Source: an uncultured archaeon (GTDB taxonomy: Archaea > Aenigmatarchaeota > Aenigmatarchaeia > QMZP01 > JACQNV01). Taken from it: a DNA stretch of 64,000 nucleotides. Positions 6,046-32,944 of this stretch are shown here, in pieces. The stretch spans positions 50,733-114,732 of the forward strand of contig CAYYYJ010000001.1 of NCBI GenBank assembly GCA_964476045.1. Reading direction: 5' to 3'. The stretch's first letter is position 1; each line of letters starts with the position of its first letter. The notes beneath the pieces were generated by a model. It ran no database searches. It had not been told where the DNA came from and saw only the letters and a program-made list of their open reading frames with translations. Position numbers and translations under genes: made by a program.

Positions 6046-8544
6046 TTAGCTATACTTCTCAATTATCTTTAAGCTTCTTTCCAATTCATCTATCGATTCG
6101 AGCATGCTCTCTTTTAGGAGCAATGGCAACTTCTTATTTTTCCCTAGGAACGCTTTACATTTTTTCAAAAATCCTTCTTCAACATAAACAGACGGGAACA
6201 GGTTGTCAAAGAAGTCCTCTGCATATTTCCTGTTCTTCTTTTCGAAAATCTCCAATATTTCTTTGAAAAAAGAATCGGAAAATTTCCTGAGGCCTTCTTT
6301 CTGCTTCCTGGAAAAGAACCTTGACATCCCAGTTCTCAGATAATCCAAAGAATATCCTTCACCTTTCACAAAAAGGTTCCAGTGCTCCTTCTTCTTTTCC
6401 GCTTTTGCAACTTTAGCTGCAAAAGCCTCTTTCTGGCCTTTATCGCTGCTATCTTTTTTTAACTCATTCTCTATCAGTAAATCTGTTTTAGGGTGACCGA
6501 AAACAGCAAGCCTATTTATGGACGCCCATCTCTGCTCTTGGTTAAATGGGAAATCTTTTATTTTCAACTTATTCTCTAAAAGTTCCACTACACGTTCGGG
6601 ATTTTTGCAGCCTCCTATACAAGAAGAAAGCAGATTAAACCAAACGTCTTTTAGCTCCCTGTCCATATTTTTTTGTATATTCTCTAGTGCAAAGCTGTAG
6701 ATTTTTTCGCAGTAAGTGAAGTAGTCTTCATCCTTCAAATAAGAGCCCAGTATCCCAGAAGCTCTGTTGAAAAGGGATTCGAGGATAAAGAGATTTTTTT
6801 CTTCAGGCGCTTTTTCTATAACAAGCTGTAAATATTTTTTCGGATCAAGAAAGGCATCCCTGACGCTCTGCCAAAGCGAACCATAGACCATCTGCCTTGA
6901 AAGGTCGTCCTGTATTTTCTGTATATTTTTTAGGGCATAGTTGACAGAACCTTCGTTGAGCCTTTCCTTCACATAATCATGGTCATTGTAATTCAATAAT
7001 ACAATATCAGGCTTCTCAGTTTTAGGGTCAACTTCTGTTAATACTCCTTTGTACTCGACAGAAAGCTCCTTTTGAACCCTTCCGTCTTTCAGAAAAGCTA
7101 TCTGACACCTATGCTCCCTAAGAAGGTTGTTTTTTAGCGAAGGATTTTGGACTATCCCAAGAGACTCCACTCGATTCCCTTCTGTCCTTATCATATATTC
7201 TATTGTATTCACTCCCGTAGTCTCAAGCCACATCTTTGCCCAGTTATCAAGGGATTTGCCACTCGATTTTTCCATGCACCCAAGAAAATCTTTGAGTGAT
7301 GTATTTGACCACTGGTATTTTTTGAAGTAAATCGAAAGCCCTTTTTTGAAAGCCTCCTCGCCAATAAAAAACATCAGTTGTTTGAGCACAGCAGCGCCTT
7401 TAGAATAGCTGATCCCATCGAAATTGCTGAAAGCCACATCAGTATCAGGCGCGTCAGCTGCTATTGGATGGGTTGTGACCCATTGATCTTCCACATACGC
7501 CCATGCCTTCCTCGCATAAAAGCTCTGCCATCCTTCTTTAAACTCTGTTGCTTGAACCAAGCCCAGGTAAGACAAGAAATCTGCAAAGCTCTCGTTCAAC
7601 CAGAGATCGTCCCACCATTTCATTGTCACAAGGTCGCCAAACCACATGTGCACCATCTCATGCAAAACAACATCGGCGAGAGTCGAACGCTCTGTCCTTC
7701 TTGGCTCATATCTGAACAGAAACCTTTCAGTGAACGTCACAGCGCCTACGTTCTCCATCGCACCGTGGTTGAACTCCGGAACAAATATTTGGTCGTACTT
7801 CTCAAAAGGGTATGGGAAATCAAAAAACTTCTGGTAAAATTCAAGGCCTTGCTTCGTGAAAGTGAACATGTCCTTATCTCTCAGGTATTTCTTCATTGAT
7901 TGCCTGCAAAATAGTCTGAGAGGTATTTTGCCTGATTTGTTCTGGACAGAGTGGAATTCTCCAACACTTAAGTGAAATAGATAAGTACTGAATCTAGGAG
8001 TTTGCTTGAAAAAAGTTGTTTTAAAATCGTTTTTATTCTCTACTTTTTCTTCCAGTGTGTTGGAAATCAAAGTCCATTCTTTTGGGGCCGTGACAGTCAA
8101 TTTGTATGTGGCTTTGATATCCGGCTGGTCAAAGCATGGGAACAGCCTGTGCGCATCGTAAGGCTCAAATTGCGTGTAGATATATTCTCTCTTGTCTTCA
8201 GGGTCTGTGAAATGGTGGAACCCTGTGCCTGTTTTATCGTATTCGTTTTCGTACTCAACTTCAATTTTGTTTTCTCCCTTTTTCAGCTGAGATTTATTTA
8301 TGATTAACGCAAAGCCTTCCTGTTTAAAATCAGATTTTTTATTGTTTACCCTCAGTATTTTGACATTTCCAATAAAATCTATTTTCAAATCGTCTTTAAT
8401 ATTTTTCAAAATAAAGTTGAGCTCGCATTTGCCTGAATAGGCCTTGCTGTTCTTTTTCAGGGAGACCTGTATTTTATAACTGACATCGCTTATCGCGGAT
8501 GTCCTTTTTTCTGCAAACTTTCTTGTCAGGATGTCTTCTGCCAT
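6046..8544 (-). CDS. pepN: aminopeptidase N (M1 family gluzincin)
   Basis: HEMVHMWFGDLVT (HExxH) followed by WLNESFA glutamate motif; 832 aa. Confidence 0.9.
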   Translation of the reverse strand: MAEDILTRKFAEKRTSAISDVSYKIQVSLKKNSKAYSGKCELNFILKNIKDDLKIDFIGNVKILRVNNKKSDFKQEGFALIINKSQLKKGENKIEVEYENEYDKTGTGFHHFTDPEDKREYIYTQFEPYDAHRLFPCFDQPDIKATYKLTVTAPKEWTLISNTLEEKVENKNDFKTTFFKQTPRFSTYLFHLSVGEFHSVQNKSGKIPLRLFCRQSMKKYLRDKDMFTFTKQGLEFYQKFFDFPYPFEKYDQIFVPEFNHGAMENVGAVTFTERFLFRYEPRRTERSTLADVVLHEMVHMWFGDLVTMKWWDDLWLNESFADFLSYLGLVQATEFKEGWQSFYARKAWAYVEDQWVTTHPIAADAPDTDVAFSNFDGISYSKGAAVLKQLMFFIGEEAFKKGLSIYFKKYQWSNTSLKDFLGCMEKSSGKSLDNWAKMWLETTGVNTIEYMIRTEGNRVESLGIVQNPSLKNNLLREHRCQIAFLKDGRVQKELSVEYKGVLTEVDPKTEKPDIVLLNYNDHDYVKERLNEGSVNYALKNIQKIQDDLSRQMVYGSLWQSVRDAFLDPKKYLQLVIEKAPEEKNLFILESLFNRASGILGSYLKDEDYFTYCEKIYSFALENIQKNMDRELKDVWFNLLSSCIGGCKNPERVVELLENKLKIKDFPFNQEQRWASINRLAVFGHPKTDLLIENELKKDSSDKGQKEAFAAKVAKAEKKKEHWNLFVKGEGYSLDYLRTGMSRFFSRKQKEGLRKFSDSFFKEILEIFEKKNRKYAEDFFDNLFPSVYVEEGFLKKCKAFLGKNKKLPLLLKESMLESIDELERSLKIIEKYS

Positions 8545-14341: not shown

Positions 14342-14893
14342 TTAAAGGAGCTGCCTCGTTATCTCGTAAAAAGTAATGTCCCCTTCATTGTCAACTATAG
14401 CCCAGAGCATGGTAGCCCTGATGGAGTGAGCTAACCTGACAGCCCGCGAGAGCTCTTGAAAACTGCAAGAATAATCTTCTGGGACGCAATATACAATCCA
14501 TCTTGTGTGCTCTGATGGGGCTTTTGGCCCCTTCTTAACAAGAACACCTCTTTGGTAAACGCGGAAATCGCAACCGAATTTGAAGCCTGTTTTGACAACT
14601 AAACCCCTTCCTCTGAGATCCCTGTAAACTGCGTATCTCTCGTGGAATCTTTTGTCCAATTCCGAGCAATATTCAAAAAATGCCTTAAAGCTCATCTTAG
14701 TTTTGCCTTTTTTTACAGAGAGTTTTTTCTTCTCAACTAAATAAGCAGCTTCGACCAGAGCGAGCTCGAGCCTGTCATCTATCCTTTTCCCATAGCTTCT
14801 TTGCTCTAGCTCATCAAAGCCTTTTGAGATAAATAACTTGTTTTCTAAAAGGGTCGCTTCTGGAACCTTTCTGATCTCGTTTTCGGTTGCCAT
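14342..14893 (-). CDS. endA: tRNA-splicing endonuclease (short, alpha-type)
   Basis: Catalytic C-terminal domain YAVYRDLRGRGLVVKTGFKFGCDFRVY; 183 aa. Confidence 0.85.
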   Translation of the reverse strand: MATENEIRKVPEATLLENKLFISKGFDELEQRSYGKRIDDRLELALVEAAYLVEKKKLSVKKGKTKMSFKAFFEYCSELDKRFHERYAVYRDLRGRGLVVKTGFKFGCDFRVYQRGVLVKKGPKAPSEHTRWIVYCVPEDYSCSFQELSRAVRLAHSIRATMLWAIVDNEGDITFYEITRQLL

Positions 14894-16503: not shown

Positions 16504-17012
16504 AAATCGTCCTGTACATGGCAACAACAGTGAATGGGTTTATAGCTAGAGAGAACGATGATACTCCGTGGGCCCAGGAAATATGGGATAGCTATTATAA
16601 GATTGCGAAAAAGTTCAACGCTCTTATTTTAGGCAGAAGGACTTACGAGATAATGAAGGATGCCAATGAGTTCGATAAGATAGGAACTCCTTTTACAATC
16701 GTGATAACAAAACAGAAAAAGAAAAATGATGCAAATTTTGTTTTTGTAAAATCGCCTAAAGAGGCTATAGATTTGTTAAACGGCAAAGGATTTGATGAAG
16801 CCTTGCTTGGGGGAGGCGGGACTACTAATTCTTCTTTTATGAAAGATAATTTAGTTGACGAATTAATTTTAGATATTGAACCCATGATTTTAAGCAGTGG
16901 AATAAAGCTGTTCGAAGGAAATAATTTCGAAGCCAAGCTTTCATTATTAAGAACAGATAAGATTTCTAAAAATGTTGTACAGTTGAGGTATAAGGTTTTG
17001 AGTAAAGTATGA
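16500..17012 (+). CDS. dihydrofolate reductase-like (RibD C-terminal domain) protein
   Basis: MKIVLYMATTVNGFIA ... ILGRRTYE ... LDIEPMILSSGIKLFEG pattern of the RibD_C/DHFR-like family. Confidence 0.7.
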   Translation: MKIVLYMATTVNGFIARENDDTPWAQEIWDSYYKIAKKFNALILGRRTYEIMKDANEFDKIGTPFTIVITKQKKKNDANFVFVKSPKEAIDLLNGKGFDEALLGGGGTTNSSFMKDNLVDELILDIEPMILSSGIKLFEGNNFEAKLSLLRTDKISKNVVQLRYKVLSKV

Positions 17013-17527
17013 AAATCGCAATCGGCTCCAAAAACCCTGTGAAAATCGCGGCAGTGAGAGACGGCCTAATCGAAGCGTTCCCTTACGCTGAATTCGTTGC
17101 AGTCGAAGCCTCGTCTGGAGTCTCAGACCAGCCTATCGGGGATGGAGAGACAACTAAAGGCGCGATTAACAGGGCACAAAATGCGTTGAAAGAATTAAAT
17201 GCGGATCTGGGAGTTGGACTCGAAGGCGGGGTTAAAGAGACAGAACACGGAATGATGGGAACTGTCTGGTGCGCGATTGTTGATAAATATGGTAAAGTAA
17301 GTTTAGGCGGAGGTTTAAATTACCACATACCTTGGGAAGTTGAGCGAATGATCAAGAATGGAATTGAATTAGGGAAAGCAATGGACATTCTGAGCAAACA
17401 AGAAAACACAAAACATAAAGAAGGCTCGATTGGGATACTTACAAAGGGTCTCATAGACAGGAAGAAGGGATATGAAAGTTTGGTGAGATTAGCTGCTGCC
17501 AAGCATGTTAGCCCAGAATTCTATTAG
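17009..17527 (+). CDS. inosine/xanthosine triphosphatase (YjjX/DUF84 family NTPase)
   Basis: MKIAIGSKNPVKIAAVRDGL ... SGVSDQPIGDGETTKGAINRA ... GVGLEGG matches the YjjX family. Confidence 0.75.
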   Translation: MKIAIGSKNPVKIAAVRDGLIEAFPYAEFVAVEASSGVSDQPIGDGETTKGAINRAQNALKELNADLGVGLEGGVKETEHGMMGTVWCAIVDKYGKVSLGGGLNYHIPWEVERMIKNGIELGKAMDILSKQENTKHKEGSIGILTKGLIDRKKGYESLVRLAAAKHVSPEFY

Positions 17528-23657: not shown

Positions 23658-24272
23658 CTACCCAAGCCTGCTCGCATAGATCATCTTCACTGTTATTTTA
23701 TTTGATTTGAAAACATCTATTACCTTTGCTGCAGAATCCAGATCTACAAATAAAGTGTTTGGTCCGAGCTTAATCGATCCTGTTGTCTCCAGAAGTCCTT
23801 TGTACACGGCTTTTTTTGTCCTGTAACCATAAAGTTTCTTGCTTATAAGGACCCTTTTTGATTCTGGCACTATTTTGTCCCAGTAGAGTATAACAAATTG
23901 CTGGCCTTCTGACTTTTCCTTATATTTTGAGTATAATACTATTCCATCAGAAATTATTGAAATTTTGAGGTCTTTCCATTTTTGTAGATTATCAGTTATG
24001 CAGGAAATAATATTCTGGATTCCGGCCAGCTTCCAGTTTCTGAATGCGGCTGTTTTATAGAAATCCTCTATTATTTTTCCCACTCTTTTTTCTATACTGC
24101 CTGGATGGTAGACATTTACAAATATGTCGACATCGCTGTCTTTTCTGGCATCTCCGCGGGCAACAGAGCCGTATAGTATTATCTCTTTTACATTTCCTCT
24201 TTCCTGCTCCCCTAGTTCTGACATTAAAAAAGATGCAAACGACATTGCATAAGGCACCAAAATCCTGCTCAT
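23658..24272 (-). CDS. nucleotidyltransferase-domain protein (MNT/Pol-beta superfamily)
   Basis: LYGSVARGDARKDSDVDIFV (GS...DxD) signature. Confidence 0.65.
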   Translation of the reverse strand: MSRILVPYAMSFASFLMSELGEQERGNVKEIILYGSVARGDARKDSDVDIFVNVYHPGSIEKRVGKIIEDFYKTAAFRNWKLAGIQNIISCITDNLQKWKDLKISIISDGIVLYSKYKEKSEGQQFVILYWDKIVPESKRVLISKKLYGYRTKKAVYKGLLETTGSIKLGPNTLFVDLDSAAKVIDVFKSNKITVKMIYASRLG

Positions 24273-24766
24273 TCCACTTTGACCCCCATTTTCTCCATTT
24301 TATCTTTTAACCTGTTGAAAATTTCTAAGTACTCTTCCAAGATTTCCCTTGCCTGCTGCCTCCCATAGCACAAAATATTCCTTTTCTTTTCTATTTCTAC
24401 CATAAGTTTGGTTACCTCTGCCTTATTTCTAAATTCAAAATTTAATTTTTCAGAAGCCATGCTTTCTGAGCCAAAATCATTGTGCTTAAGCTGAAATCCC
24501 GGGCTTACTAGGTTTTTTGAGTGCAAATATATTTCGACCATGTCAACAGAAGCAGATGAGCAATGAAAGCCTATTGTTTTCTGCTTGTTTTCGATGCCTC
24601 TTGCTATAGCTGACCTTATCTCTTCAATGCTTTCTTTCAGCCCTTTAAGATGCGATTCTATCCTCATGCTGCCTTTTATAGATACTACTGTGTCTAATAA
24701 TTTTCTACAATTGTATATATAATTAGATACAATTGTATATAAACTAATGGTCGCATTGACACCCAA
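24269..24766 (-). CDS. putative HEPN-domain protein paired with the downstream nucleotidyltransferase
   Basis: All-helical 165-aa ORF overlapping the MNT gene by 4 nt; no clear Rx4-6H motif, so the assignment is by context only. Confidence 0.35.
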   Translation of the reverse strand: MGVNATISLYTIVSNYIYNCRKLLDTVVSIKGSMRIESHLKGLKESIEEIRSAIARGIENKQKTIGFHCSSASVDMVEIYLHSKNLVSPGFQLKHNDFGSESMASEKLNFEFRNKAEVTKLMVEIEKKRNILCYGRQQAREILEEYLEIFNRLKDKMEKMGVKVE

Positions 24767-25992: not shown

Positions 25993-27249
25993 ATGTCTAA
26001 ATTAAAACTCACCGAAGAAGGTAAAAAATACCTGAAAGAGGGGCTACCTGAGAAAAAGCTGGCTGAGCTTCTAGAAAAAGGCTCCTTATCAATGGCAGAA
26101 GCCCAAAAGAAAATTGAAAACCTTAGCGTAGCTCTCCAATGGGGAAAGAAAAACAGGTGGGTTGATATTGAGGATGGCAAGCTTGTTCTTGTTAAAAAAC
26201 CTGTAGAAACAGTTGAAAAATATTTAGAAAAAATTGAAAAAAAAGAGCCTATTCCAGAAAACATATTAAAAATTTTATTTCAAAGAAAACTTGCAGTTGA
26301 GGAAAGGGAAAATGAAAGGAAAAAAGCAGAAGCTTTTGTTGGAAAAGAAATTGACAAACTAACCCCCGAATTAATAAAAACAGGCCTGTGGAAGGAAACA
26401 AAATTAAAGCCTTACAATGTGGAGTTTATTGGCAAGAGAATTTATTCTGGAAAAAGGCAGCCTTATAATATATTTCTGGATTCTGTCAGAAGGAAGTTAA
26501 TAGAGCTGGGCTTCATAGAGTGCAGAGGGCAGGCTATAGTCCAGGAATTCTGGAATTTCGACGCGCTCTATCAGCCTCAGGGGCATCCGGCAAGGGACTG
26601 GACAGATGTCTACACTTTAAAATATCCAAAGAAAGGTTCTCTGCCAGATCCAAAATTAGTTGAGCGGGTAAAAGAAACCCATGAAAACGGATGGAAAACA
26701 GGCTCAACTGGCTGGGGTTATGCGTGGAGCCCTGAAAAAGCAGCGCATCTCATGCCGATTGCGCACGATACAGCTGTTTCACCTAAAATTCTTGCTTCTA
26801 AAGATCTTAAAATACCTGGAAAGTACTTCCAGATTGTAAGGTGTTACAGGCCGGATATTTTGGATGCGACCCATTTGATAGAATTTAATCAGGTTGGAGG
26901 GTTTATTGTAGGAGAAGATCTGAATTTCAGGAATTTGCTTGGGGTCTTGAAAATGTTTGCCCATGAAGTTGCTGGTGCTGAGCAAGCCAAGTTCACGGCA
27001 GGATACTTCCCATTCACAGAACCTAGCTGCGAAATCTCAGCTAAACACCCAGAACTCGGATGGATAGAAATAGGCGGCGCAGGGATCTTTAGAGAAGAGT
27101 TAACAAAACCTTTAGGCGTAGATTATCCTGTAATTGCATGGGGGATTGGGATAGATAGGCTGGCCATGTTTAAATTAGGATTAAAGGACGCGAGAAGCCT
27201 GTTTACAAGCGATCTTAAGCTTTTGAGAGAACAAAAAGTATTAATTTAG
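25993..27249 (+). CDS. pheS: phenylalanyl-tRNA synthetase alpha subunit (archaeal type)
   Basis: Class II motifs FNFDALYQPQGHPARD, RCYRPD and GAGIFREELT...GIGIDRLAM. Confidence 0.9.
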   Translation: MSKLKLTEEGKKYLKEGLPEKKLAELLEKGSLSMAEAQKKIENLSVALQWGKKNRWVDIEDGKLVLVKKPVETVEKYLEKIEKKEPIPENILKILFQRKLAVEERENERKKAEAFVGKEIDKLTPELIKTGLWKETKLKPYNVEFIGKRIYSGKRQPYNIFLDSVRRKLIELGFIECRGQAIVQEFWNFDALYQPQGHPARDWTDVYTLKYPKKGSLPDPKLVERVKETHENGWKTGSTGWGYAWSPEKAAHLMPIAHDTAVSPKILASKDLKIPGKYFQIVRCYRPDILDATHLIEFNQVGGFIVGEDLNFRNLLGVLKMFAHEVAGAEQAKFTAGYFPFTEPSCEISAKHPELGWIEIGGAGIFREELTKPLGVDYPVIAWGIGIDRLAMFKLGLKDARSLFTSDLKLLREQKVLI

Positions 27250-27347
27250 TAATTATTTCTGATAAACTTACAGAAAGTTCAAAACCTTAAGACTCACTCA
27301 AGTACAGCCTTATAAACCTAAGTTTACAAGTATAAACTAAAGTAGTT

Positions 27348-27887
27348 ATGTACAAACTAAAGTTTACACGATTGCAGAATGAAATATTCAGGCTATTGTG
27401 CATAAGGTCAGGAGAAAAGAGCAGCCAGAGGCAGATAGCGAACTGCCTGAAAGTATCCCCAACCGCAGTTGGAAAGGCCATAATCCTCATGAAAAAAGAG
27501 GGGGTGATAAAGGTCCATAAAGACAAAATAATGAATTTGAACCTGATAGAACTGAACAGAGATAATACAAAAACCCTCGAAATGAAGAGGGTAGAGAATC
27601 TAAAGCTGATTTTGGAATCCGGATTGTCAGATTTACTAGAAGAAAAATTTCCGGGTTGCACAATAATACTCTTTGGAAGCTATTCGAGAGGCGAGGATAC
27701 AACAAAATCAGATATCGATATAGCTGTTATCGGATCTGAACCAAAAGAGATAGACTTATCTCATATGGAAAAAGGCCTTGGGAGAGAAATAAGAATCCAA
27801 TTCTATGCTTCTTTCAAAGATATTAATAAAGAACTAAAGGAGAATATACTAAATGGCATGGTTATTGCAGGAAGCGTTGAATTATGA
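27348..27887 (+). CDS. winged-HTH plus minimal nucleotidyltransferase (MNT antitoxin-like)
   Basis: N-terminal wHTH (QRQIANCLKVSPTAVGKAI) and ILFGSYSRGEDTTKSDIDIAV signature. Confidence 0.65.
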   Translation: MYKLKFTRLQNEIFRLLCIRSGEKSSQRQIANCLKVSPTAVGKAIILMKKEGVIKVHKDKIMNLNLIELNRDNTKTLEMKRVENLKLILESGLSDLLEEKFPGCTIILFGSYSRGEDTTKSDIDIAVIGSEPKEIDLSHMEKGLGREIRIQFYASFKDINKELKENILNGMVIAGSVEL

Positions 27888-28333
27888 AACCTCTAAGGTT
27901 TTTTAGCGAGTATATTGCTGATGGCATAGTTAAGAAGCAATCTCCAGATATTCCAAGATCAGAATCATTAGTGAAGGAAGCTGAAATCTCATATTCTGTT
28001 TTGATGGAACATGTGGAAAAACTTGGGATATCAGACAGAAATGCAAACCATATAGTTAAAAATTCGTATGACATAATAATGGAATCGGTAAGATCGAAGA
28101 TGTTACTGAATGGGTTTGGTTCTGCAGGAACAGGAGCCCATGAAGCAGAGGTTGCCTATCTGCGAGAACTGGGATTCAATCAAGCAGACATCGAATTTAC
28201 AAATCAACTTAGATATTTTAGAAACGGTATAACATACTATGGCAAATCTTTCGATGCAGAGTATGCGAAGAAAGTGGTGGAGTTTTTAAAAAGGATGTAT
28301 ACGCTTTTGAGGGAGCAAAAAATGGTGTTTTAG
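27884..28333 (+). CDS. putative HEPN-domain protein (partner of the upstream MNT)
   Basis: Start overlaps the MNT stop (ATGA); helical 149 aa with an R...YYG stretch in the usual HEPN motif position. Confidence 0.5.
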   Translation: MKPLRFFSEYIADGIVKKQSPDIPRSESLVKEAEISYSVLMEHVEKLGISDRNANHIVKNSYDIIMESVRSKMLLNGFGSAGTGAHEAEVAYLRELGFNQADIEFTNQLRYFRNGITYYGKSFDAEYAKKVVEFLKRMYTLLREQKMVF

Positions 28334-28334
28334 T

Positions 28335-28742
28335 ATGCCGAAGTCTGGAACAATAAAATCTGATCTGAAGGCGCAAATACCTGAAGAGACCAGAAGAGCA
28401 GCAAAAGAGATATCAGGATTGCCTGGTGTTTTGGCTGTCTATCTTTTTGGCAGCTATGCAAAGGGTACACAGAGGCCTTACTCTGATGTGGATTTGTGTA
28501 TTATGGCTGAAAATCTCGATGCTAAAACAGTTGGCGATATACTCATGCACTCTAGCAAAAGAATAGAAACGCACATTCTGGATGCACTACCGCTGAACAT
28601 CCAGTTCAGGGTCTTTAGCGAAGGCAAACCGCTTTTTGTAAACTCAGGAGAAAAAATATTGGAAAAAAGGCTTGCTGTCATGAGATTGTATCAGGATTTC
28701 AGGCCAAGGCTGGAAAGGTATTGGAGGAATATATTGTCATGA
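28335..28742 (+). CDS. minimal nucleotidyltransferase (MntA-like antitoxin)
   Basis: LFGSYAKGTQRPYSDVDLCI signature. Confidence 0.7.
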   Translation: MPKSGTIKSDLKAQIPEETRRAAKEISGLPGVLAVYLFGSYAKGTQRPYSDVDLCIMAENLDAKTVGDILMHSSKRIETHILDALPLNIQFRVFSEGKPLFVNSGEKILEKRLAVMRLYQDFRPRLERYWRNILS

Positions 28743-29146
28743 CAGATACAGAACGTGTTGCAGGGCTAATGGTGGATATAAAAAAATATACAACTGAGCT
28801 TGAAAGCTATAAAATAAAGTCTGTGGAAGACCTGAAGGACAGCAAGACGTTTTTTGCAAGCTCTATGGTCGCTTTCCGGCTGATAAACAGGGTCTTTGAT
28901 TTGTGCGATGATATCATAAACTCCAGAAATATGGGTGTGCCTGCCATATACAAGGACATTTTCTGGCTTCTGGAAAAAGGGAAAGTAATAGACAAATCAG
29001 CCAGAGAGAAGGTGTGGCCTGTGATGAAGTATAGAAACCTGCTGGCCCACGAATATGGAGAAATTTCAGGCGAAGACATTTTGTTTATAATAAATAATCT
29101 CGAACAAATAAAATGGTTTGTAAAAAAGTTGTCTGGAGGCTCTTAA
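28721..29146 (+). CDS. HEPN/DUF86 toxin-like protein (HepT-like)
   Basis: C-terminal YRNLLAHEY = Rx4HxY HEPN catalytic motif; overlaps the MntA-like gene. Confidence 0.7.
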   Translation: MEEYIVMTDTERVAGLMVDIKKYTTELESYKIKSVEDLKDSKTFFASSMVAFRLINRVFDLCDDIINSRNMGVPAIYKDIFWLLEKGKVIDKSAREKVWPVMKYRNLLAHEYGEISGEDILFIINNLEQIKWFVKKLSGGS

Positions 29147-29147
29147 T

Positions 29148-30854
29148 ATGCCAAAATTTGAAATAAGCAAATCTGATCTGGAGAAGCTGGTTGGAAAAAA
29201 GTTCACAGCAAAAGAATTAGAGGATGCGCTCTTGTTCGCAAAGACAGAATTGGATGGGCAAAACGGCGACACGCTCAAAGTTGATGTGAAGGATACTAAC
29301 AGGCCTGACCTATGGAGCGTAGAAGGTATTGCGCGAGAGCTCAAAGGCCACTTTAGGATAGAAGAAGGCCTCCCGAAATATAATGTGAAAAAATCTGGCC
29401 TGCAGATTTTTGTTGAAGCAGAGGAATATCACGTACATGCAGTCGGAGTTGTTGTAAAAAATTTAAAAATCGATGATAACGTGCTTTCCCAAATGATACA
29501 ACTACAGGAAAAGGTTGCAGGGACTTTTGGAAGGAACAGGAAAGCACTTTCTATTGGAGCATATGATTTGGGGAAAGTAAAGTTCCCTGTCAAATACGTT
29601 GCAAAAAAACCGCAGGATATAAGGTTCGCTCCTCTCGGTTTTAATAAGGAGATGACTGCGAAAGAGATTTTAGCAAACCACGAAAAAGGTAAACAGTACG
29701 GAGAAATCATAAAAAACGCCAAAACATATAATGTCTGGGAAGACGCTAACAAAAAAATACTTGCTTTCGAGCCAATAATTAATTCCAATGGGGCAGGGAA
29801 TGTGACTACACAAGCTAAAGACATATTTTTAGAGTGCACAGGAGATGACCTGAAACAAATTCAGATAGCAATAAATGTTGTCGCAACAGCACTAGCTGAG
29901 CGAGGCGGGCAAATAGAGTCAATCGAAGTTGTCCACAAAAATAGAAAAACAGCCAGTCCAGATTTGACTCCAAAAAAATCTCACTTGGACCCAGAATATT
30001 GCAGAAAGATTTTAGGTTTGGAGATTTCAGATACTGAAATGGTAAAATTATTGAAAGAGGCTAGGCATGATGCAAAACTAGACAAGAAAAAAATCGGCCA
30101 AGGGACGAAACCGGTCAGCGGACCGATTTCAACCATTTCTGTTGAATATCCTGCTTACAGGAATGACATAATGCACCAGCGCGACCTTGTAGAAGACGTT
30201 GCAATCAGTTTTGGTTATAATGATATAGAGCCAGAGACACCGAAAATTGCTACGATAGGGGCTTCTCACAAACTCGAAGACTTCTCAAATATTATAAGAG
30301 AAATATGCGTTGGTTTGGGTTTGCAGGAAGTCCTGACTTTTACTTTGACAAACAAAGACAATATGTTCAAAAAAATGAATCTGTCGGAAAAGGATCTTGT
30401 TGAAATAGAAAATCCAATGAGCTCGAATTGGTCTGCTTTTAGGGATAAAATAATGCCTAACTCGCTTGACTTCCTAGCTTCTAACAAAAACCAGGATTAT
30501 CCACAGGGAATTTTTGAAGTAGGCGACGTCACGCTTTTAGATCCTTCAAATAAAGATACTGGGGTGACTAATCGCAGGAAGTTTTCTGTAGTTCTCACGA
30601 ATACGCAAATAGGTTATGAAGATGCGTCTTCGCTGCTTTCAGCACTAGTGTCCAGTTTAGGCAAAAAACTGGTTTTAAAGAGAAAAGAGATCTCCTCATT
30701 CATCGCTGGAAGGGCGGCAGAGATTTTTCTGGACAACAAATCAATCGGGATAATAGGCGAGATCCATCCTCAGGTCCTAAATAATTGGAATTTGGAGAAG
30801 CCTGTTGTGGGCTTTGAGATAGATATCGAGTCTCTGCTTGAATTGATACAATAG
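29148..30854 (+). CDS. pheT: phenylalanyl-tRNA synthetase beta subunit (archaeal type)
   Basis: N-terminal B3/B4-like domain (LKVDVKDTNRPDLWSVEGIARE) and catalytic-like C-terminal domain, 568 aa. Confidence 0.9.
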   Translation: MPKFEISKSDLEKLVGKKFTAKELEDALLFAKTELDGQNGDTLKVDVKDTNRPDLWSVEGIARELKGHFRIEEGLPKYNVKKSGLQIFVEAEEYHVHAVGVVVKNLKIDDNVLSQMIQLQEKVAGTFGRNRKALSIGAYDLGKVKFPVKYVAKKPQDIRFAPLGFNKEMTAKEILANHEKGKQYGEIIKNAKTYNVWEDANKKILAFEPIINSNGAGNVTTQAKDIFLECTGDDLKQIQIAINVVATALAERGGQIESIEVVHKNRKTASPDLTPKKSHLDPEYCRKILGLEISDTEMVKLLKEARHDAKLDKKKIGQGTKPVSGPISTISVEYPAYRNDIMHQRDLVEDVAISFGYNDIEPETPKIATIGASHKLEDFSNIIREICVGLGLQEVLTFTLTNKDNMFKKMNLSEKDLVEIENPMSSNWSAFRDKIMPNSLDFLASNKNQDYPQGIFEVGDVTLLDPSNKDTGVTNRRKFSVVLTNTQIGYEDASSLLSALVSSLGKKLVLKRKEISSFIAGRAAEIFLDNKSIGIIGEIHPQVLNNWNLEKPVVGFEIDIESLLELIQ

Positions 30855-30855
30855 A

Positions 30856-32091
30856 TTACACGTTCACAGGTATTGCAATTTTTAATTTCTCGACCATATC
30901 TAATTTCTCCCAGCTAAAACTATCTCTTCCGAAATGGCCGTATTTCGCAGTTTCTGCATACACTGGTTTTCCAGGACCTATCAACTTTAGCTTTTCTATT
31001 ATCCTGCCTGGTCTCCATGGGAAAACTTCTTTGACTTTCTCTGCTATCTCATGATCGGGGATCTGTCCTGTTCCAAAAGTATCAACTCTTATAGACAACG
31101 GATCTGGCTTCCCTATAACATAAGAAACCTGTATTTCGCACCTATCGGACAGACCGGAAGCTACAATATTTTTTGCAGCCCATCTGCATGCATAGGTTGC
31201 TGACCTGTCGACTTTTGACGGATCTTTTCCTGAAAAGGCGCCACCGCCATGCCTTCCCATTCCGCCGTATGTGTCCACGATTATTTTTCTTCCAGTTACG
31301 CCACTATCGCCTACTGGACCCCCTATAACAAATCTCCCTGTCCCGTTTATATGAAATTTTGTATCTTTATCCAACATCTCGTGCGGTATAACTTTCCTTA
31401 TAATTTCATCCTCTATCCCTTGTCTAATCTCTGAGTCTGTTGCGGACTCTAGGTGCTGCGCAGCTAAGACGACATGAATCACTTTTATAGGCTTGTTGTT
31501 TTCGTAGAGAACTGTAACTTGGGATTTTGCGTCAGGCCTAAGCCATGGAAGTATGCCATTTTTCCTGCACTGATCCAATTGCATAATAAGTTTGTGGGAT
31601 AAGTCAATCGGCAACGGCATCAAAGACGTTGTCTCATTTGTTGCATATCCGAACATCAGGCCTTGGTCTCCGGCGCCTTGCAAATCAAGGTCGGCTTTAT
31701 TTACGCCTTGCGCAATATCAACTGATTGTTTTCCCAATAGAGACAATACAAAGCAATTGGGGTCAAAACCGTCTCCATCCACATAGCCGATATCTTTTAT
31801 TGTTCTTCTGACTAAGTCTTCTGGATCAAATTCCGCATTAGTGGTGATCTCTCCCAATAAAACAATGGCCCCGTGCTTTTCAATGTGTTTCGCGTTCTCA
31901 ACTCCGAATAGTTTTACCAATGGCGCATATTTTTTATTATCAAAAATGCCTGCTTTAACGCCTGTCTCAACTGCAACTCTTGAATTCACATCGCCTAACA
32001 GGGCTGCATCCACTATTGAATCTGAGACCTGATCACAGACTTTATCTGGGTGTCCAGGAGAAACAGCCTCGGAAGTAAAATATGATTTCAT
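30856..32091 (-). CDS. metK: S-adenosylmethionine synthetase, bacterial/eukaryotic MetK type
   Basis: FTSEAVSPGHPDKVCDQVSDSIVDA and GGGAFSGKDPSKVDRSATYACRWAAKNIVASGL match MetK motifs, not the archaeal MAT family. Confidence 0.85.
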   Translation of the reverse strand: MKSYFTSEAVSPGHPDKVCDQVSDSIVDAALLGDVNSRVAVETGVKAGIFDNKKYAPLVKLFGVENAKHIEKHGAIVLLGEITTNAEFDPEDLVRRTIKDIGYVDGDGFDPNCFVLSLLGKQSVDIAQGVNKADLDLQGAGDQGLMFGYATNETTSLMPLPIDLSHKLIMQLDQCRKNGILPWLRPDAKSQVTVLYENNKPIKVIHVVLAAQHLESATDSEIRQGIEDEIIRKVIPHEMLDKDTKFHINGTGRFVIGGPVGDSGVTGRKIIVDTYGGMGRHGGGAFSGKDPSKVDRSATYACRWAAKNIVASGLSDRCEIQVSYVIGKPDPLSIRVDTFGTGQIPDHEIAEKVKEVFPWRPGRIIEKLKLIGPGKPVYAETAKYGHFGRDSFSWEKLDMVEKLKIAIPVNV

Positions 32092-32185
32092 AGAAAACCA
32101 CCTTCAAAATTAATTGACATTAGATAACTTGTTTGTTGGGTAGTTTTTATTCTTTTCCCCACATTGAGATTAAACAAGTAACAAT

Positions 32186-32944
32186 CTATCTTTTGAGCCA
32201 ACTCAACATATAGACAAATCTCGCCTGGTTTCTTGGCTTTGTTCCTGTTAAAGCAGCTGCAACATTCCTGAATCCAATAGAAGCTTTTGAGCCTGGCTTA
32301 TAGGAGACTAACGGTTTTTTGGCTATCATAGCTTTTCTGAACTCTTTGTCTTCTGGTATAGTGCCTAAGATCTCCATTCCCAAAAACTCTCTAACCTCTT
32401 GAGGATGGATTTCATGCCTATCATTTCTCACCCTATTCAAGACTACACCCAAATTGGTTGTTTCTAGCTTTTCTGTAATTTTCGCGAGTTTCAGAGCATC
32501 TACCATTGCTGGCATCTCTGGGTTTGTAATTGTAATAAGCTCGTCAGCAGCTTCTATTGCTGTGACAGCTTCTTTGCCTAGCCCAGCTGCAGAATCAACT
32601 AGGACAAAATCAAACCCATCTGCTAATTTGTAGAGCACATTGACCAGCTCGCTGGCAGTTGTTTTCGAGAGCCTTGTTATAGACATGTCTGCTGGAAGGA
32701 TTTTTATCCCAGATCTGTCAGCGTAAAGAGCTTCTTTTAGCTTTGCTTCGCCTGATAACACATCCTGAAGAGTTACAGGGTAAAGAGGTATTCCCAGATG
32801 GACCCCGAGATTGGGTGTTGTCAGATTGGCATCAACAGCCACAACTTCCTTTCCTTGCTTTGCAAGGGCAGTTGCGAGGTTGCATACAAAAGTTGTTTTC
32901 CCTGCACCGCCTTTACCAGAAGCAACAGCAATAATTCTTCCCAT
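32186..32944 (-). CDS. minD: MinD/ParA-family P-loop ATPase
   Basis: Deviant Walker A VASGKGGAGKTT; 252 aa. Confidence 0.8.
   Translation of the reverse strand: MGRIIAVASGKGGAGKTTFVCNLATALAKQGKEVVAVDANLTTPNLGVHLGIPLYPVTLQDVLSGEAKLKEALYADRSGIKILPADMSITRLSKTTASELVNVLYKLADGFDFVLVDSAAGLGKEAVTAIEAADELITITNPEMPAMVDALKLAKITEKLETTNLGVVLNRVRNDRHEIHPQEVREFLGMEILGTIPEDKEFRKAMIAKKPLVSYKPGSKASIGFRNVAAALTGTKPRNQARFVYMLSWLKR

What the first reader, a model, noticed from the sequence alone, without database searches (positions are those of the whole stretch)
27250..29146. Two tandem MNT-HEPN toxin-antitoxin-like modules inserted between pheS and pheT
Four small overlapping genes sit between the two PheRS subunit genes. 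The order is a wHTH-nucleotidyltransferase (GSYSRG...DIDIAV), a HEPN-like partner, a second minimal nucleotidyltransferase (GSYAKG...DVDLCI), and a DUF86 HEPN protein with the catalytic RNLLAHEY Rx4HxY motif. The start/stop overlaps (ATGA) are typical of MntA/HepT-type modules. The 100-bp leader upstream (27287-27370) contains short direct repeats (AAGTTTACA twice, AAACTAAAGT twice) that may be operator or insertion scars.
Basis: partly seen in the sequence, partly recalled or inferred. Interest (0 to 1): 0.5.

Follow-up and report, generated by a model that had tools for sequence, protein, structure and literature searches.

The report
Two nucleotidyltransferase–HEPN cassettes splitting pheS–pheT
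Two small two-gene cassettes have landed inside the phenylalanyl-tRNA synthetase operon of a tiny (DPANN) archaeon, each leaving a long duplicated scar; one is an ordinary toxin–antitoxin pair, while the other belongs to an unusually conserved family that carries its own control region and is flanked by long duplications in many genomes.

Summary

pheS and pheT abut in about 65 of 78 relatives, so this is an insertion. The real scars are not the leader repeats. The P2 tail copies the pheS 3' end (27216-27251 / 28300-28335). The MntA head copies the pheT 5' end (28330-28370 / 29143-29183).

MntA-HepT-pheT, with the pheT-like MntA head, is conserved in a small clade. The pheS|MntA gap there is a variable hot spot.

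The leader repeats belong to three tandem 20-bp palindromic TATA-containing repeats. These are conserved upstream of about 60 homologous cassettes and are probably a promoter/operator.

In 11 of 45 other genomes the pair-1 cassette is flanked by direct duplications with a shared exact word of at least 14 nt (full repeats 14-74 nt), against 1 of 1980 mismatched controls. No recombinase is present.

Verdict: a new variant of a known kind. Its mode of insertion is unexplained.

The parts
25993..27249 (+). pheS (archaeal PheRS alpha subunit, 418 aa)
   Evidence: PF01409 E 1.8e-72; NF003210 E 2.5e-147
27216..27251 (+). DR-A copy 1: last codons of pheS + TAG + TA (left scar of cassette 1)
   Evidence: 36 nt, 78% identical to 28300-28335. 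The core is 26/33 and is the best non-self match in the window on both strands. Alignment A4.
27252..27299 (+). Non-conserved filler between the scar and the conserved left end of cassette 1
   Evidence: Information content is zero upstream of about -49 from the NT1 start across 59 loci
27311..27370 (+). Three tandem ~20-bp repeats: R1 27311-27330, R2 27331-27350, R3 27351-27370. Each holds TATAAAC and a TAAAC-N4-GTTTA palindrome. R1 is the probable BRE/TATA promoter. R1 and R3 are the probable operator for the NT1 wHTH. R3 encodes YKLKFT.
Evidence: Conserved in ~60 homologous loci. Position-weight-matrix hits occur only at these three positions of the cassette.
27348..27887 (+). NT1: MarR-like winged-helix domain fused to a minimal nucleotidyltransferase (G110-S111-X10-D122-x-D124)
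   Evidence: PF01909/PF18765. PADLOC PDC-M05A E 1e-13 over the full length. AF2 pLDDT 91. Foldseek matches ZitR/AdcR/MepR in the N-terminal half and MNT antitoxin/MntA/HI0073 in the C-terminal half. Invariant residues in A7.
27884..28333 (+). P2: HEPN-fold partner without the catalytic His (invariant H86, E89, R110, R113, N114, Y118, Y119, G120). The last ~7 codons + stop derive from the duplicated pheS end.
28300..28335 (+). DR-A copy 2: P2 tail, a copy of the ancestral pheS 3' end
   Evidence: It matches the pheS ends of L090 and L032 as well as or better than the window's own pheS end.
28330..28370 (+). DR-B copy 1: stop-T-ATG + the first 12 codons of MntA, a copy of the pheT 5' end
   Evidence: 41 nt, 78% identical to 29143-29183. 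The core is 29/37 and is the best non-self match in the window. Alignment A5 with L032.
28335..28742 (+). MntA-type minimal nucleotidyltransferase antitoxin (G39-S40-X10-D51-x-D53) with a chimeric pheT-derived N-terminus (MPKSGTIKSDL)
   Evidence: PF18765 E 6.5e-12; NF047752 59.3 bits against a cut-off of 60. pheT-linked homologues start MPKFEISK..., whereas the free homologue L173 starts MKPQED.
28739..29146 (+). HepT (DUF86) HEPN RNase toxin, R99-x4-H104-x-Y106
   Evidence: PF01934 E 2.5e-16; NF047751 56 bits against a cut-off of 60. The motif is invariant in clade homologues.
29143..29183 (+). DR-B copy 2: the true pheT 5' end
29148..30854 (+). pheT (archaeal PheRS beta subunit, 568 aa). 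A GGAGG sequence 8 nt upstream lies inside the HepT 3' end.
   Evidence: TIGR00471 E 2.7e-153; sequence

Best explanation
The 1.9-kb spacer is the product of two separate cassette insertions into the tight pheS-stop/T/ATG-pheT junction of an Aenigmatarchaeota-like DPANN archaeon. Each insertion duplicated the gene end it hit, so both essential genes stayed intact.

Step 1 (older). A promoterless, ORF-precise MntA-HepT module entered after codon ~12 of pheT. MntA now uses a copy of pheT's start and first 12 codons. HepT ends 1 nt before the regenerated pheT start. This MntA-HepT-pheT unit has been inherited vertically in a small clade.

Inferred from family knowledge: it works as a type VII toxin-antitoxin system. 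HepT would be an Rx4HxY RNase, and MntA would switch it off by (poly)adenylylating Y106.

Step 2 (later). A 1.05-kb cassette entered at the pheS|MntA junction. It carries its own promoter, NT1 (MarR-like wHTH + minimal nucleotidyltransferase) and P2 (HEPN fold). P2 now terminates in a copy of the pheS tail.

Inferred: NT1 dimers bind the palindromic repeats R1 and R3, which overlap the TATA box and the start of the transcript, and so autoregulate the cassette. The NT1 nucleotidyltransferase domain probably nucleotidylates P2 on the invariant Tyr118/Tyr119. P2 lacks the HEPN His, so it either uses H86/E89/R113 or is not an RNase.

This cassette family is DPANN-wide, always paired, highly conserved, and lies in unrelated genomic contexts. 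It is often bracketed by long (14-74 nt) target duplications. It therefore behaves as a mobile, probably addictive or defensive module (a divergent relative of PADLOC candidate PDC-M05).

Inferred: pheT is now transcribed by read-through across the inserts.
For: Gene identities:
-.
- NT1 wHTH + MNT fold.
- Catalytic motifs: A6, A7, A8.

Empty site:
- pheS-pheT are adjacent in ~65 of 78 relatives, including L032, which is 67-71% identical in PheS and 69-70% in PheT by tblastn and global alignment.

Scars:
- DR-A is 26/33 and DR-B is 29/37. Each is the best non-self match in 128 kb, and each is in register with the stop or start codon.
- The repeat finder recovers both independently.
- The central P2|MntA junction reproduces the L032 pheS|pheT junction.

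Clade conservation of MntA-HepT-pheT:
- Close MntA homologues have pheT-like N-termini.
- The free MntA-HepT in L173 lacks that head.
- MntA and HepT divergence (60-71%) tracks PheT divergence (70-76%).

NT1-P2 as a unit:
- Strict linkage in all 80 metagenome loci, with the start of P2 abutting or overlapping the end of NT1 in most of them.
- Diverse neighbours: 141 clusters among 155 flanking ORFs.
- Conserved promoter/operator block.
- Flanking duplications: 11/45 against 1/1980 in controls; examples include 66/66 nt in L098 and 68/72 nt in L159.
Against: - No experiment supports toxicity, AMPylation or DNA binding.
- P2 lacks the His that defines HEPN RNases, and hhalign does not align it to the window's HepT. 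The toxin role of pair 1 is therefore the weakest step.
- NT1 has no conserved third carboxylate in the expected strand.
- P2 and NT1 are 55-75% identical across DPANN phyla. That is more conserved than PheS, which is 43-50% identical to Woese-/Nanoarchaeota. Such conservation is unusual for a selfish toxin-antitoxin module and fits a housekeeping role.
- NCBIfam MntA and HepT equivalog scores fall just under their cut-offs (59.3 and 56 against 60).
- Whether the window and the L090/L175 lineage share one NT1-P2 insertion, or had two at the same site, is unresolved.
- No enzyme that could make 14-74-nt duplications is encoded in the cassette, and no relative was found on viral contigs.
Confidence: 0.72

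Rival explanations
1. Pair 1 is not a toxin-antitoxin or defence module. It is a conserved DPANN housekeeping enzyme: a two-subunit nucleotidyltransferase of the HI0073/HI0074 or kanamycin-nucleotidyltransferase type. The His-less HEPN subunit would bind the nucleotide or substrate, and the wHTH would only autoregulate expression.
For: - P2 has no Rx4-6H His.
- Conservation across DPANN phyla is very high.
- The neighbours are mostly housekeeping genes, not defence islands.
- Makarova et al. 2019 (PMC6393860) flagged a DPANN-specific MNT-HEPN cluster (NEQ050) as unusually conserved and lying in a housekeeping context.
Against: - The genomic position varies, with no conserved neighbour.
- Flanking target duplications, some perfect, indicate recent mobility.
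- The cassette carries its own autoregulatory block, as toxin-antitoxin modules do.
- Some contigs hold two copies or adjacent paralogous pairs: L116, L143, L146.
- It resembles the defence candidate PDC-M05A.
Confidence: 0.22
2. The modules are functionally tied to PheRS. They would form a conserved operon in which a HEPN RNase and its adenylyltransferase tune tRNA-Phe or pheT expression, rather than being selfish insertions.
For: - MntA-HepT-pheT linkage and tight stop-T-ATG coupling are retained across a clade whose PheT is 70-76% identical to the window's.
- The HepT active site is invariant there.
- The putative pheT Shine-Dalgarno sequence sits inside hepT.
Against: - Most relatives, including L032, have no insert.
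- A 57-59% identical MntA-HepT sits elsewhere without pheT (L173).
- In L175 HepT has been replaced by an unrelated ORF while pheT persists.
- NT1-P2 occurs next to ~140 different gene families.
- Other relatives carry NUDIX, a LAGLIDADG-like ORF, VapBC or a reverse transcriptase at the same site.
Confidence: 0.08
3. The gene-end and flank duplications are chance similarity or assembly artefacts, and nothing was inserted by a duplication-generating process.
For: - DR-A and DR-B are only 78% identical and AT-rich.
- All the data are metagenome assemblies.
Against: - Each is the top non-self match in the window and is in register with a stop or start codon.
- The same MntA-head/pheT-head duplication is seen in independent assemblies L177 (82% over 38 nt) and L175.
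- Own-flank matches occur in 11/45 loci against 1/1980 mismatched pairs.
- The repeats range from perfect to diverged, as expected for events of different ages.
Confidence: 0.03

Closest known systems
Type VII toxin-antitoxin HepT/MntA (Shewanella SO_3166/SO_3165; Aphanizomenon HEPN/MNT)
   Different: Pair 2 is fused to pheT's start codon and has no promoter of its own. Pair 1 adds a MarR-like wHTH to the MNT. Its HEPN partner has Tyr in place of the catalytic His, and it carries a conserved triple-repeat operator.
PADLOC phage-defence candidate PDC-M05 (nucleotidyltransferase + HEPN; archaeal-enriched; PMC12988326)
   Same: NT1 matches PDC-M05A over its whole length (E 1e-13), including the N-terminal domain. 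The architecture is two genes.
   Different: P2 matches PDC-M05B only marginally (E 0.019, 13 bits), so the pair would probably not be called by PADLOC. It is a divergent branch of DPANN origin. An antiviral role is untested even for PDC-M05.
DPANN-specific cluster cls.004259 (NEQ050, 'MNT fused to HEPN'; Makarova, Wolf & Koonin 2019, PMC6393860)
   Same: A DPANN-restricted MNT+HEPN with unusual conservation and non-defence neighbours.
   Different: NEQ050 is described as a fusion, whereas here there are two overlapping genes. I could not obtain the NEQ050 sequence, so identity of the families is not tested.
HI0073/HI0074 two-protein nucleotidyltransferase, kanamycin nucleotidyltransferase and UPF0332 (AF0298) HEPN proteins
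   Different: Those proteins have no wHTH, no known operator, and no reported mobility or flanking duplications.
Insertion sequences that make long, variable target duplications (e.g. IS1634 of Mycoplasma; from my own knowledge)
   Same: Direct duplications of tens of bases, of variable length, flank the inserted DNA.
   Different: The cassette has no transposase and no terminal inverted repeats. The operator motif occurs at the left end only.

Membership tests
HepT/MntA type VII TA (pair 2) | MntA nucleotidyltransferase with GSX10DXD | tested here: met
   G39-S40-X10-D51-V-D53 is invariant in A6; PF18765 and PF01909 score above their cut-offs
HepT/MntA type VII TA (pair 2) | HepT (DUF86) with Rx4HxY | tested here: met
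   R99-NLLA-H104-E-Y106; PF01934 scores 59.9 bits against a cut-off of 23.5; the motif is invariant in A8
HepT/MntA type VII TA (pair 2) | NCBIfam equivalog score cut-offs (NF047752, NF047751) | tested here: not met
   59.3 and 56.0 bits against a cut-off of 60: a narrow miss, so these are divergent members
HepT/MntA type VII TA (pair 2) | Toxicity of HepT and its neutralisation by AMPylation of the motif Tyr | not testable with these tools
   Needs expression and mass spectrometry
MNT-HEPN TA module (pair 1) | Minimal nucleotidyltransferase with GSX10DXD | tested here: met
   G110-S111-X10-D122-I-D124 is invariant in A7; PF01909 E 1e-10
MNT-HEPN TA module (pair 1) | Partner with HEPN fold | tested here: met
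MNT-HEPN TA module (pair 1) | Rx4-6H catalytic motif of HEPN RNases | tested here: not met
   R113-NGIT-Y118-Y119-G; no His at this position in 50 close relatives (A1) or in the 29 representative-cluster relatives aligned in A2, 24-53% identical
PADLOC PDC-M05 | Both the M05A and the M05B profiles matched | tested here: inconclusive
   M05A E 1e-13; M05B E 0.019
Transposon / insertion sequence | Encoded transposase or recombinase, and terminal inverted repeats | tested here: not met
   Only NT1 and P2 are encoded. The position-weight matrix of the repeat motif hits the left end only.
Transposon / insertion sequence | Target-site duplication flanking the element | tested here: met
   14-74-nt direct repeats; an exact shared word of at least 14 nt in 11/45 loci against 1/1980 control pairs

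The most novel reading that the evidence does not exclude
The wHTH-nucleotidyltransferase + Tyr-for-His HEPN cassette is a mobile element of a new kind in DPANN archaea. It would be a 1.05-kb unit that inserts without any known transposase or integrase and generates long (up to ~74 nt), variable target duplications. Either its own two proteins or an undescribed host or helper pathway would carry out the insertion. The same process would also explain the MntA-HepT insertion into pheT.
Probability: 0.1. Interest if true: 0.9.

Novelty: new variant of a known kind. Interest (0 to 1): 0.6.

Why it matters
MNT-HEPN modules are the most abundant toxin-antitoxin-like genes in archaea, yet almost none from archaea have been characterised.

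This locus gives four things:
1. A dated, scar-marked example of such cassettes invading an essential aminoacyl-tRNA synthetase operon and being retained there.
2. A precise description of a DPANN-wide family previously listed only as 'dark matter'. The description covers the MarR-like domain, the His-less HEPN with invariant H86/E89/R113/Y118/Y119, and a conserved 60-bp promoter/operator. Binding, modification and toxicity are now directly testable.
3. Evidence that variable P2 C-termini and MntA N-termini are encoded by duplicated host DNA.
4. A reproducible signature, long variable flank duplications, of a DNA insertion process in DPANN archaea with no identified enzyme.

Tried and rejected
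- Sequence profiles for P2 (Pfam, NCBIfam, PDB phmmer and hmmsearch) gave nothing significant.
- hhalign of the P2 family against the window's HepT gave no alignment. Against the third HEPN-like ORF (24269-24667) it gave only a weak motif-level match, E 0.017.
- Rfam and tRNA scans of the whole window found nothing, so no tRNA att site or known RNA is involved.
- The sigma-70 promoter and terminator scan was uninformative for an archaeon.
- I looked for a conserved neighbour or functional context of NT1-P2. The flanking ORFs fall into 141 clusters and 104 Pfam families, with none recurrent except paralogous NTases. The tRNA/translation-linked context idea (GatD, EF-1alpha, NFACT seen in L003 and L007) is rejected as not general.
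- R1/R3 covariation was tested as evidence for co-evolving operators. Within-locus identity is only slightly higher (14.8 against 14.3 of 20). Phylogenetic relatedness is not controlled, so I treat this as suggestive only.
- I looked for terminal inverted repeats or a right-end copy of the operator motif. There is none.
- Near-identical cassettes in different contexts would show recent transfer. Pairs at 98% identity or more share their flanks (same organisms). Only L143/L150 (91%) differ on the left.
- The viral-contig scan for P2 relatives found none.
- Literature searches for this family, for PDC-M05 function, or for toxin-antitoxin cassettes with target duplications found no characterisation.
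- A Campbell-type or att-site integration model is rejected for NT1-P2, because every locus duplicates a different host sequence.
Full report
**What is there.**
Between archaeal pheS (25993-27249) and pheT (29148-30854) lie four + strand ORFs:
- NT1, 27348-27887, 179 aa.
- P2, 27884-28333, 149 aa.
- MntA, 28335-28742, 135 aa.
- HepT, 28739-29146, 135 aa, starting at the ATG.

The two intra-pair junctions are ATGA overlaps. The P2|MntA and HepT|pheT junctions are both stop-T-ATG. PheS is 53-67% identical to Aenigmatarchaeota MAGs and 43-50% identical to Woese-/Nanoarchaeota, so the host is an Aenigmatarchaeota-like DPANN archaeon. G+C content does not change across the insert.

**Pair 2.**
MntA hits PF18765 and PF01909 and carries G39-S40-X10-D51-x-D53. 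HepT hits PF01934 (E 2.5e-16) and carries R99-x4-H104-x-Y106. NCBIfam's MntA and HepT equivalogs score 59.3 and 56 bits, just under the cut-off of 60. From published work on Shewanella and Aphanizomenon systems (my knowledge, plus references cited in PMC12988326), such pairs work by AMPylation of the motif Tyr of the RNase. That mechanism is inferred here, not shown.

**Pair 1.**
NT1 has an invariant GSX10DXD (A7). Its AF2 model (pLDDT 91) is a MarR-type winged helix followed by a minimal nucleotidyltransferase. The Foldseek matches are ZitR, AdcR, MepR and BldR for the first half, and MNT antitoxin 8xeo, MntA 7bxo and HI0073 for the second. It matches PADLOC PDC-M05A over its full length (E 1e-13).

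The family keeps H86, E89, R110, R113, N114, Y118, Y119 and G120 ('SHEA..YL' and 'LRxxRNxxKYYG'). It never has a His in the Rx4-6H position. P2 is therefore HEPN by fold but fails the catalytic-motif test.

**Insertion.**
In 78 pheS loci from reference genomes, pheT follows pheS within 2-15 nt in about 65. These include the closest relative, L032. A dozen loci carry other small inserts at the same junction: NUDIX, an AbrB-like ORF with a LAGLIDADG-like ORF, and small membrane ORFs. The empty site is therefore ancestral, and the junction is a recurrent landing place.

**The real scars.**
- The last ~7 codons and stop of P2 (LLREQKMVF*) copy the pheS 3' end (LLREQKVLI*): 27216-27251 against 28300-28335, 78% over 36 nt.
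- The first 12 codons of MntA (MPKSGTIKSDLK) copy the pheT 5' end (MPKFEISKSDLE): 28330-28370 against 29143-29183, 78% over 41 nt.

These are the two longest direct repeats in the region. Each is the best non-self match of its query anywhere in the window on either strand: 26/33 against a next best of 22, and 29/37 against a next best of 23. The central P2|MntA junction thus reproduces the ancestral pheS-TAG-(N)-ATG-pheT junction seen in L032.

**History of pair 2.**
The MntA family is small, with 13 close relatives. Five of the six closest relatives begin with a pheT-like MPKFE.../MPNIK... head (P0392-P0396; the sixth, P0397, begins MKTKK) (A6). In every contig of these that could be read (relatives P0392, P0395 and P0396), MntA-HepT sits immediately upstream of pheT, and downstream synteny is often the same (metK and/or minD). 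The DNA between pheS and MntA differs:
- a reverse transcriptase plus a TPR gene plus small ORFs;
- a VapBC-like pair plus ORF84 (L170-172);
- ORF93 (L177-179);
- NT1-P2 plus a 2-hydroxyacid dehydrogenase plus ORF125 (L175, the same lineage as L090).

A 57-59% identical 'free' MntA-HepT (L173) lies elsewhere and starts MKPQED, without the pheT head. PheT identities are 70-76% to the window inside this clade and 70% for L032. MntA is 60-62% identical and HepT 68-71%. This fits one old insertion followed by co-divergence.

**The pair-1 cassette family.**
P2 has 506 relatives at 53-76% identity. All of those that carry a source name are labelled as DPANN or unclassified archaea and 'hypothetical'; one is labelled Heimdallarchaeaceae. 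An exhaustive HMM search gives only 587 clusters at 50% identity. In all 80 metagenome loci P2 is preceded by NT1, abutting or overlapping its end in most of them. The flanking genes fall into 141 clusters of 155, with no recurrent partner.

Upstream, about 60 loci share a ~65-bp block that begins abruptly ~49 nt before the NT1 start. It has a BRE-like A-rich stretch followed by three tandem 20-bp repeats: TTTATAAACTnnAGTTTACA / TATAAACTAwAATGGAyATA / TATAAACTnAAGTTwACA. R1 holds the TATA box. In most members the ATG lies in R2, about 30 nt downstream, so a leaderless transcript is inferred. R3 encodes YKLKFT. R1 and R3 are palindromic (TAAAC-N4-GTTTA). A position-weight matrix finds the motif nowhere else in the cassette.

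In the window the three repeats are 27311-27330, 27331-27350 and 27351-27370. The natural reading, which is inferred, is an operator for dimeric NT1 overlapping its own promoter.

**Mobility signature.**
Conservation at the right end stops at P2 codon ~143 (...KLK). The variable C-terminal tails are read-through into flanking DNA. In many loci the cassette is bracketed by direct repeats of host sequence:
- 72 nt in L159 (68/72);
- 66 nt in L098 (66/66);
- 74 nt in L122 (62/74);
- 34, 32, 31, 29, 24, 24, 21, 19, 18 and 18 nt in others.

In L098 I checked by eye that the left copy is the 3' end of a GGDEF gene. The right copy starts 5 nt before the P2 stop and supplies that stop.

As a control, an exact word of at least 14 nt shared between a cassette's own left and right 200-nt flanks occurs in 11 of 45 non-redundant loci. 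It occurs in 1 of 1980 mismatched flank pairs.

L175 also keeps a decayed third copy of the pheT head (ATGCCGAAATTTTAGATAAG) between pheS and NT1. The NT1-P2 duplication there probably spanned the pheS tail plus the MntA head.

Every locus duplicates a different sequence, which excludes an att-site mechanism. No recombinase, no terminal inverted repeats and no viral-contig relatives were found. How the duplications arise is unexplained. In these compact genomes, a long duplication may simply be what allows an insertion at a gene end to survive.

**Context in the literature.**
Makarova, Wolf and Koonin (PMC6393860) listed a DPANN-specific MNT-HEPN cluster (NEQ050) as unusually conserved and lying in housekeeping contexts. 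A 2026 survey (PMC12988326) reports PDC-M05 (nucleotidyltransferase + HEPN) as archaeal-enriched and functionally untested. I found no description of the wHTH operator block, of the His-less motif, or of the flank duplications. Identity with NEQ050 was not tested.

**Verdict.**
Pair 2 is ordinary in kind but notable for its fusion to pheT. Pair 1 is a new variant of the MNT-HEPN theme, with testable regulatory and catalytic features. The long, variable target duplications are the most surprising and least explained element.

Noticed in passing
window 23658-24766 (- strand), with repeats at 24697-24740: A third nucleotidyltransferase pair lies 1.2 kb upstream of pheS. It consists of a ~132-aa ORF (24269-24667) with no Pfam hit and a P2-like 'KKRNILCYG' motif, overlapping by 4 nt a 204-aa NTP_transf_2 protein (23658-24272; PDC-S09-like). 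Two tandem 22-nt repeats upstream hold the palindrome ATACAATTGTAT, an operator-like layout similar to that of pair 1.
   Followed up: partly
L011 7300-8435; L012, L013 and L018 ~7212-7682; the P0392 contig; L170-L172: The pheS-pheT junction holds other cargo in relatives. These are an AbrB-like ORF plus a 331-aa ORF with LAGLIDADG-like motifs (L011), a NUDIX hydrolase (L012/13/18), a reverse transcriptase plus a TPR gene, and a VapBC-like (PIN) pair. The junction is a general hot spot for small selfish or accessory genes.
   Followed up: partly
L175 3215-3589: In the L090/L175 lineage HepT is replaced by an unrelated 124-aa ORF. That ORF also begins with a perfect 17-nt copy of the pheT start (MPKFE...). 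The MntA there has only a GTG/V start. This is another insertion or replacement that re-duplicated the pheT head.
   Followed up: partly
L153 418-947, compared with L154 2851-3381: Two 99.9% identical cassettes differ by a frameshift that splits NT1 in L153, while P2 stays intact. If real rather than an assembly error, loss of NT1 is tolerated, which argues against P2 being a strong toxin.
   Followed up: no
L173 3088-3459: The free MntA-HepT relative has YSNVLAHEY instead of YRNLLAHEY, so the motif Arg is replaced by Ser. Its HepT is also C-terminally shorter.
   Followed up: no
L116 1061-2025 and 5404-6128; L143 5451-6371; L146 1512-2396: Some contigs carry two NT1-P2 cassettes, or an adjacent paralogous pair that is ~30% identical. 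The family has therefore diversified into paralogous sub-families that can sit in tandem.
   Followed up: no
window 14342-14893 (-), 17009-17527 (+), 30856-32944 (-): The housekeeping neighbourhood includes tRNA-splicing endonuclease, a DUF84 NTPase, a RibD_C/DHFR-like protein, SAM synthetase and a MinD/ParA ATPase. No tRNA gene and no Rfam hit occurs anywhere in the 64 kb.
   Followed up: partly
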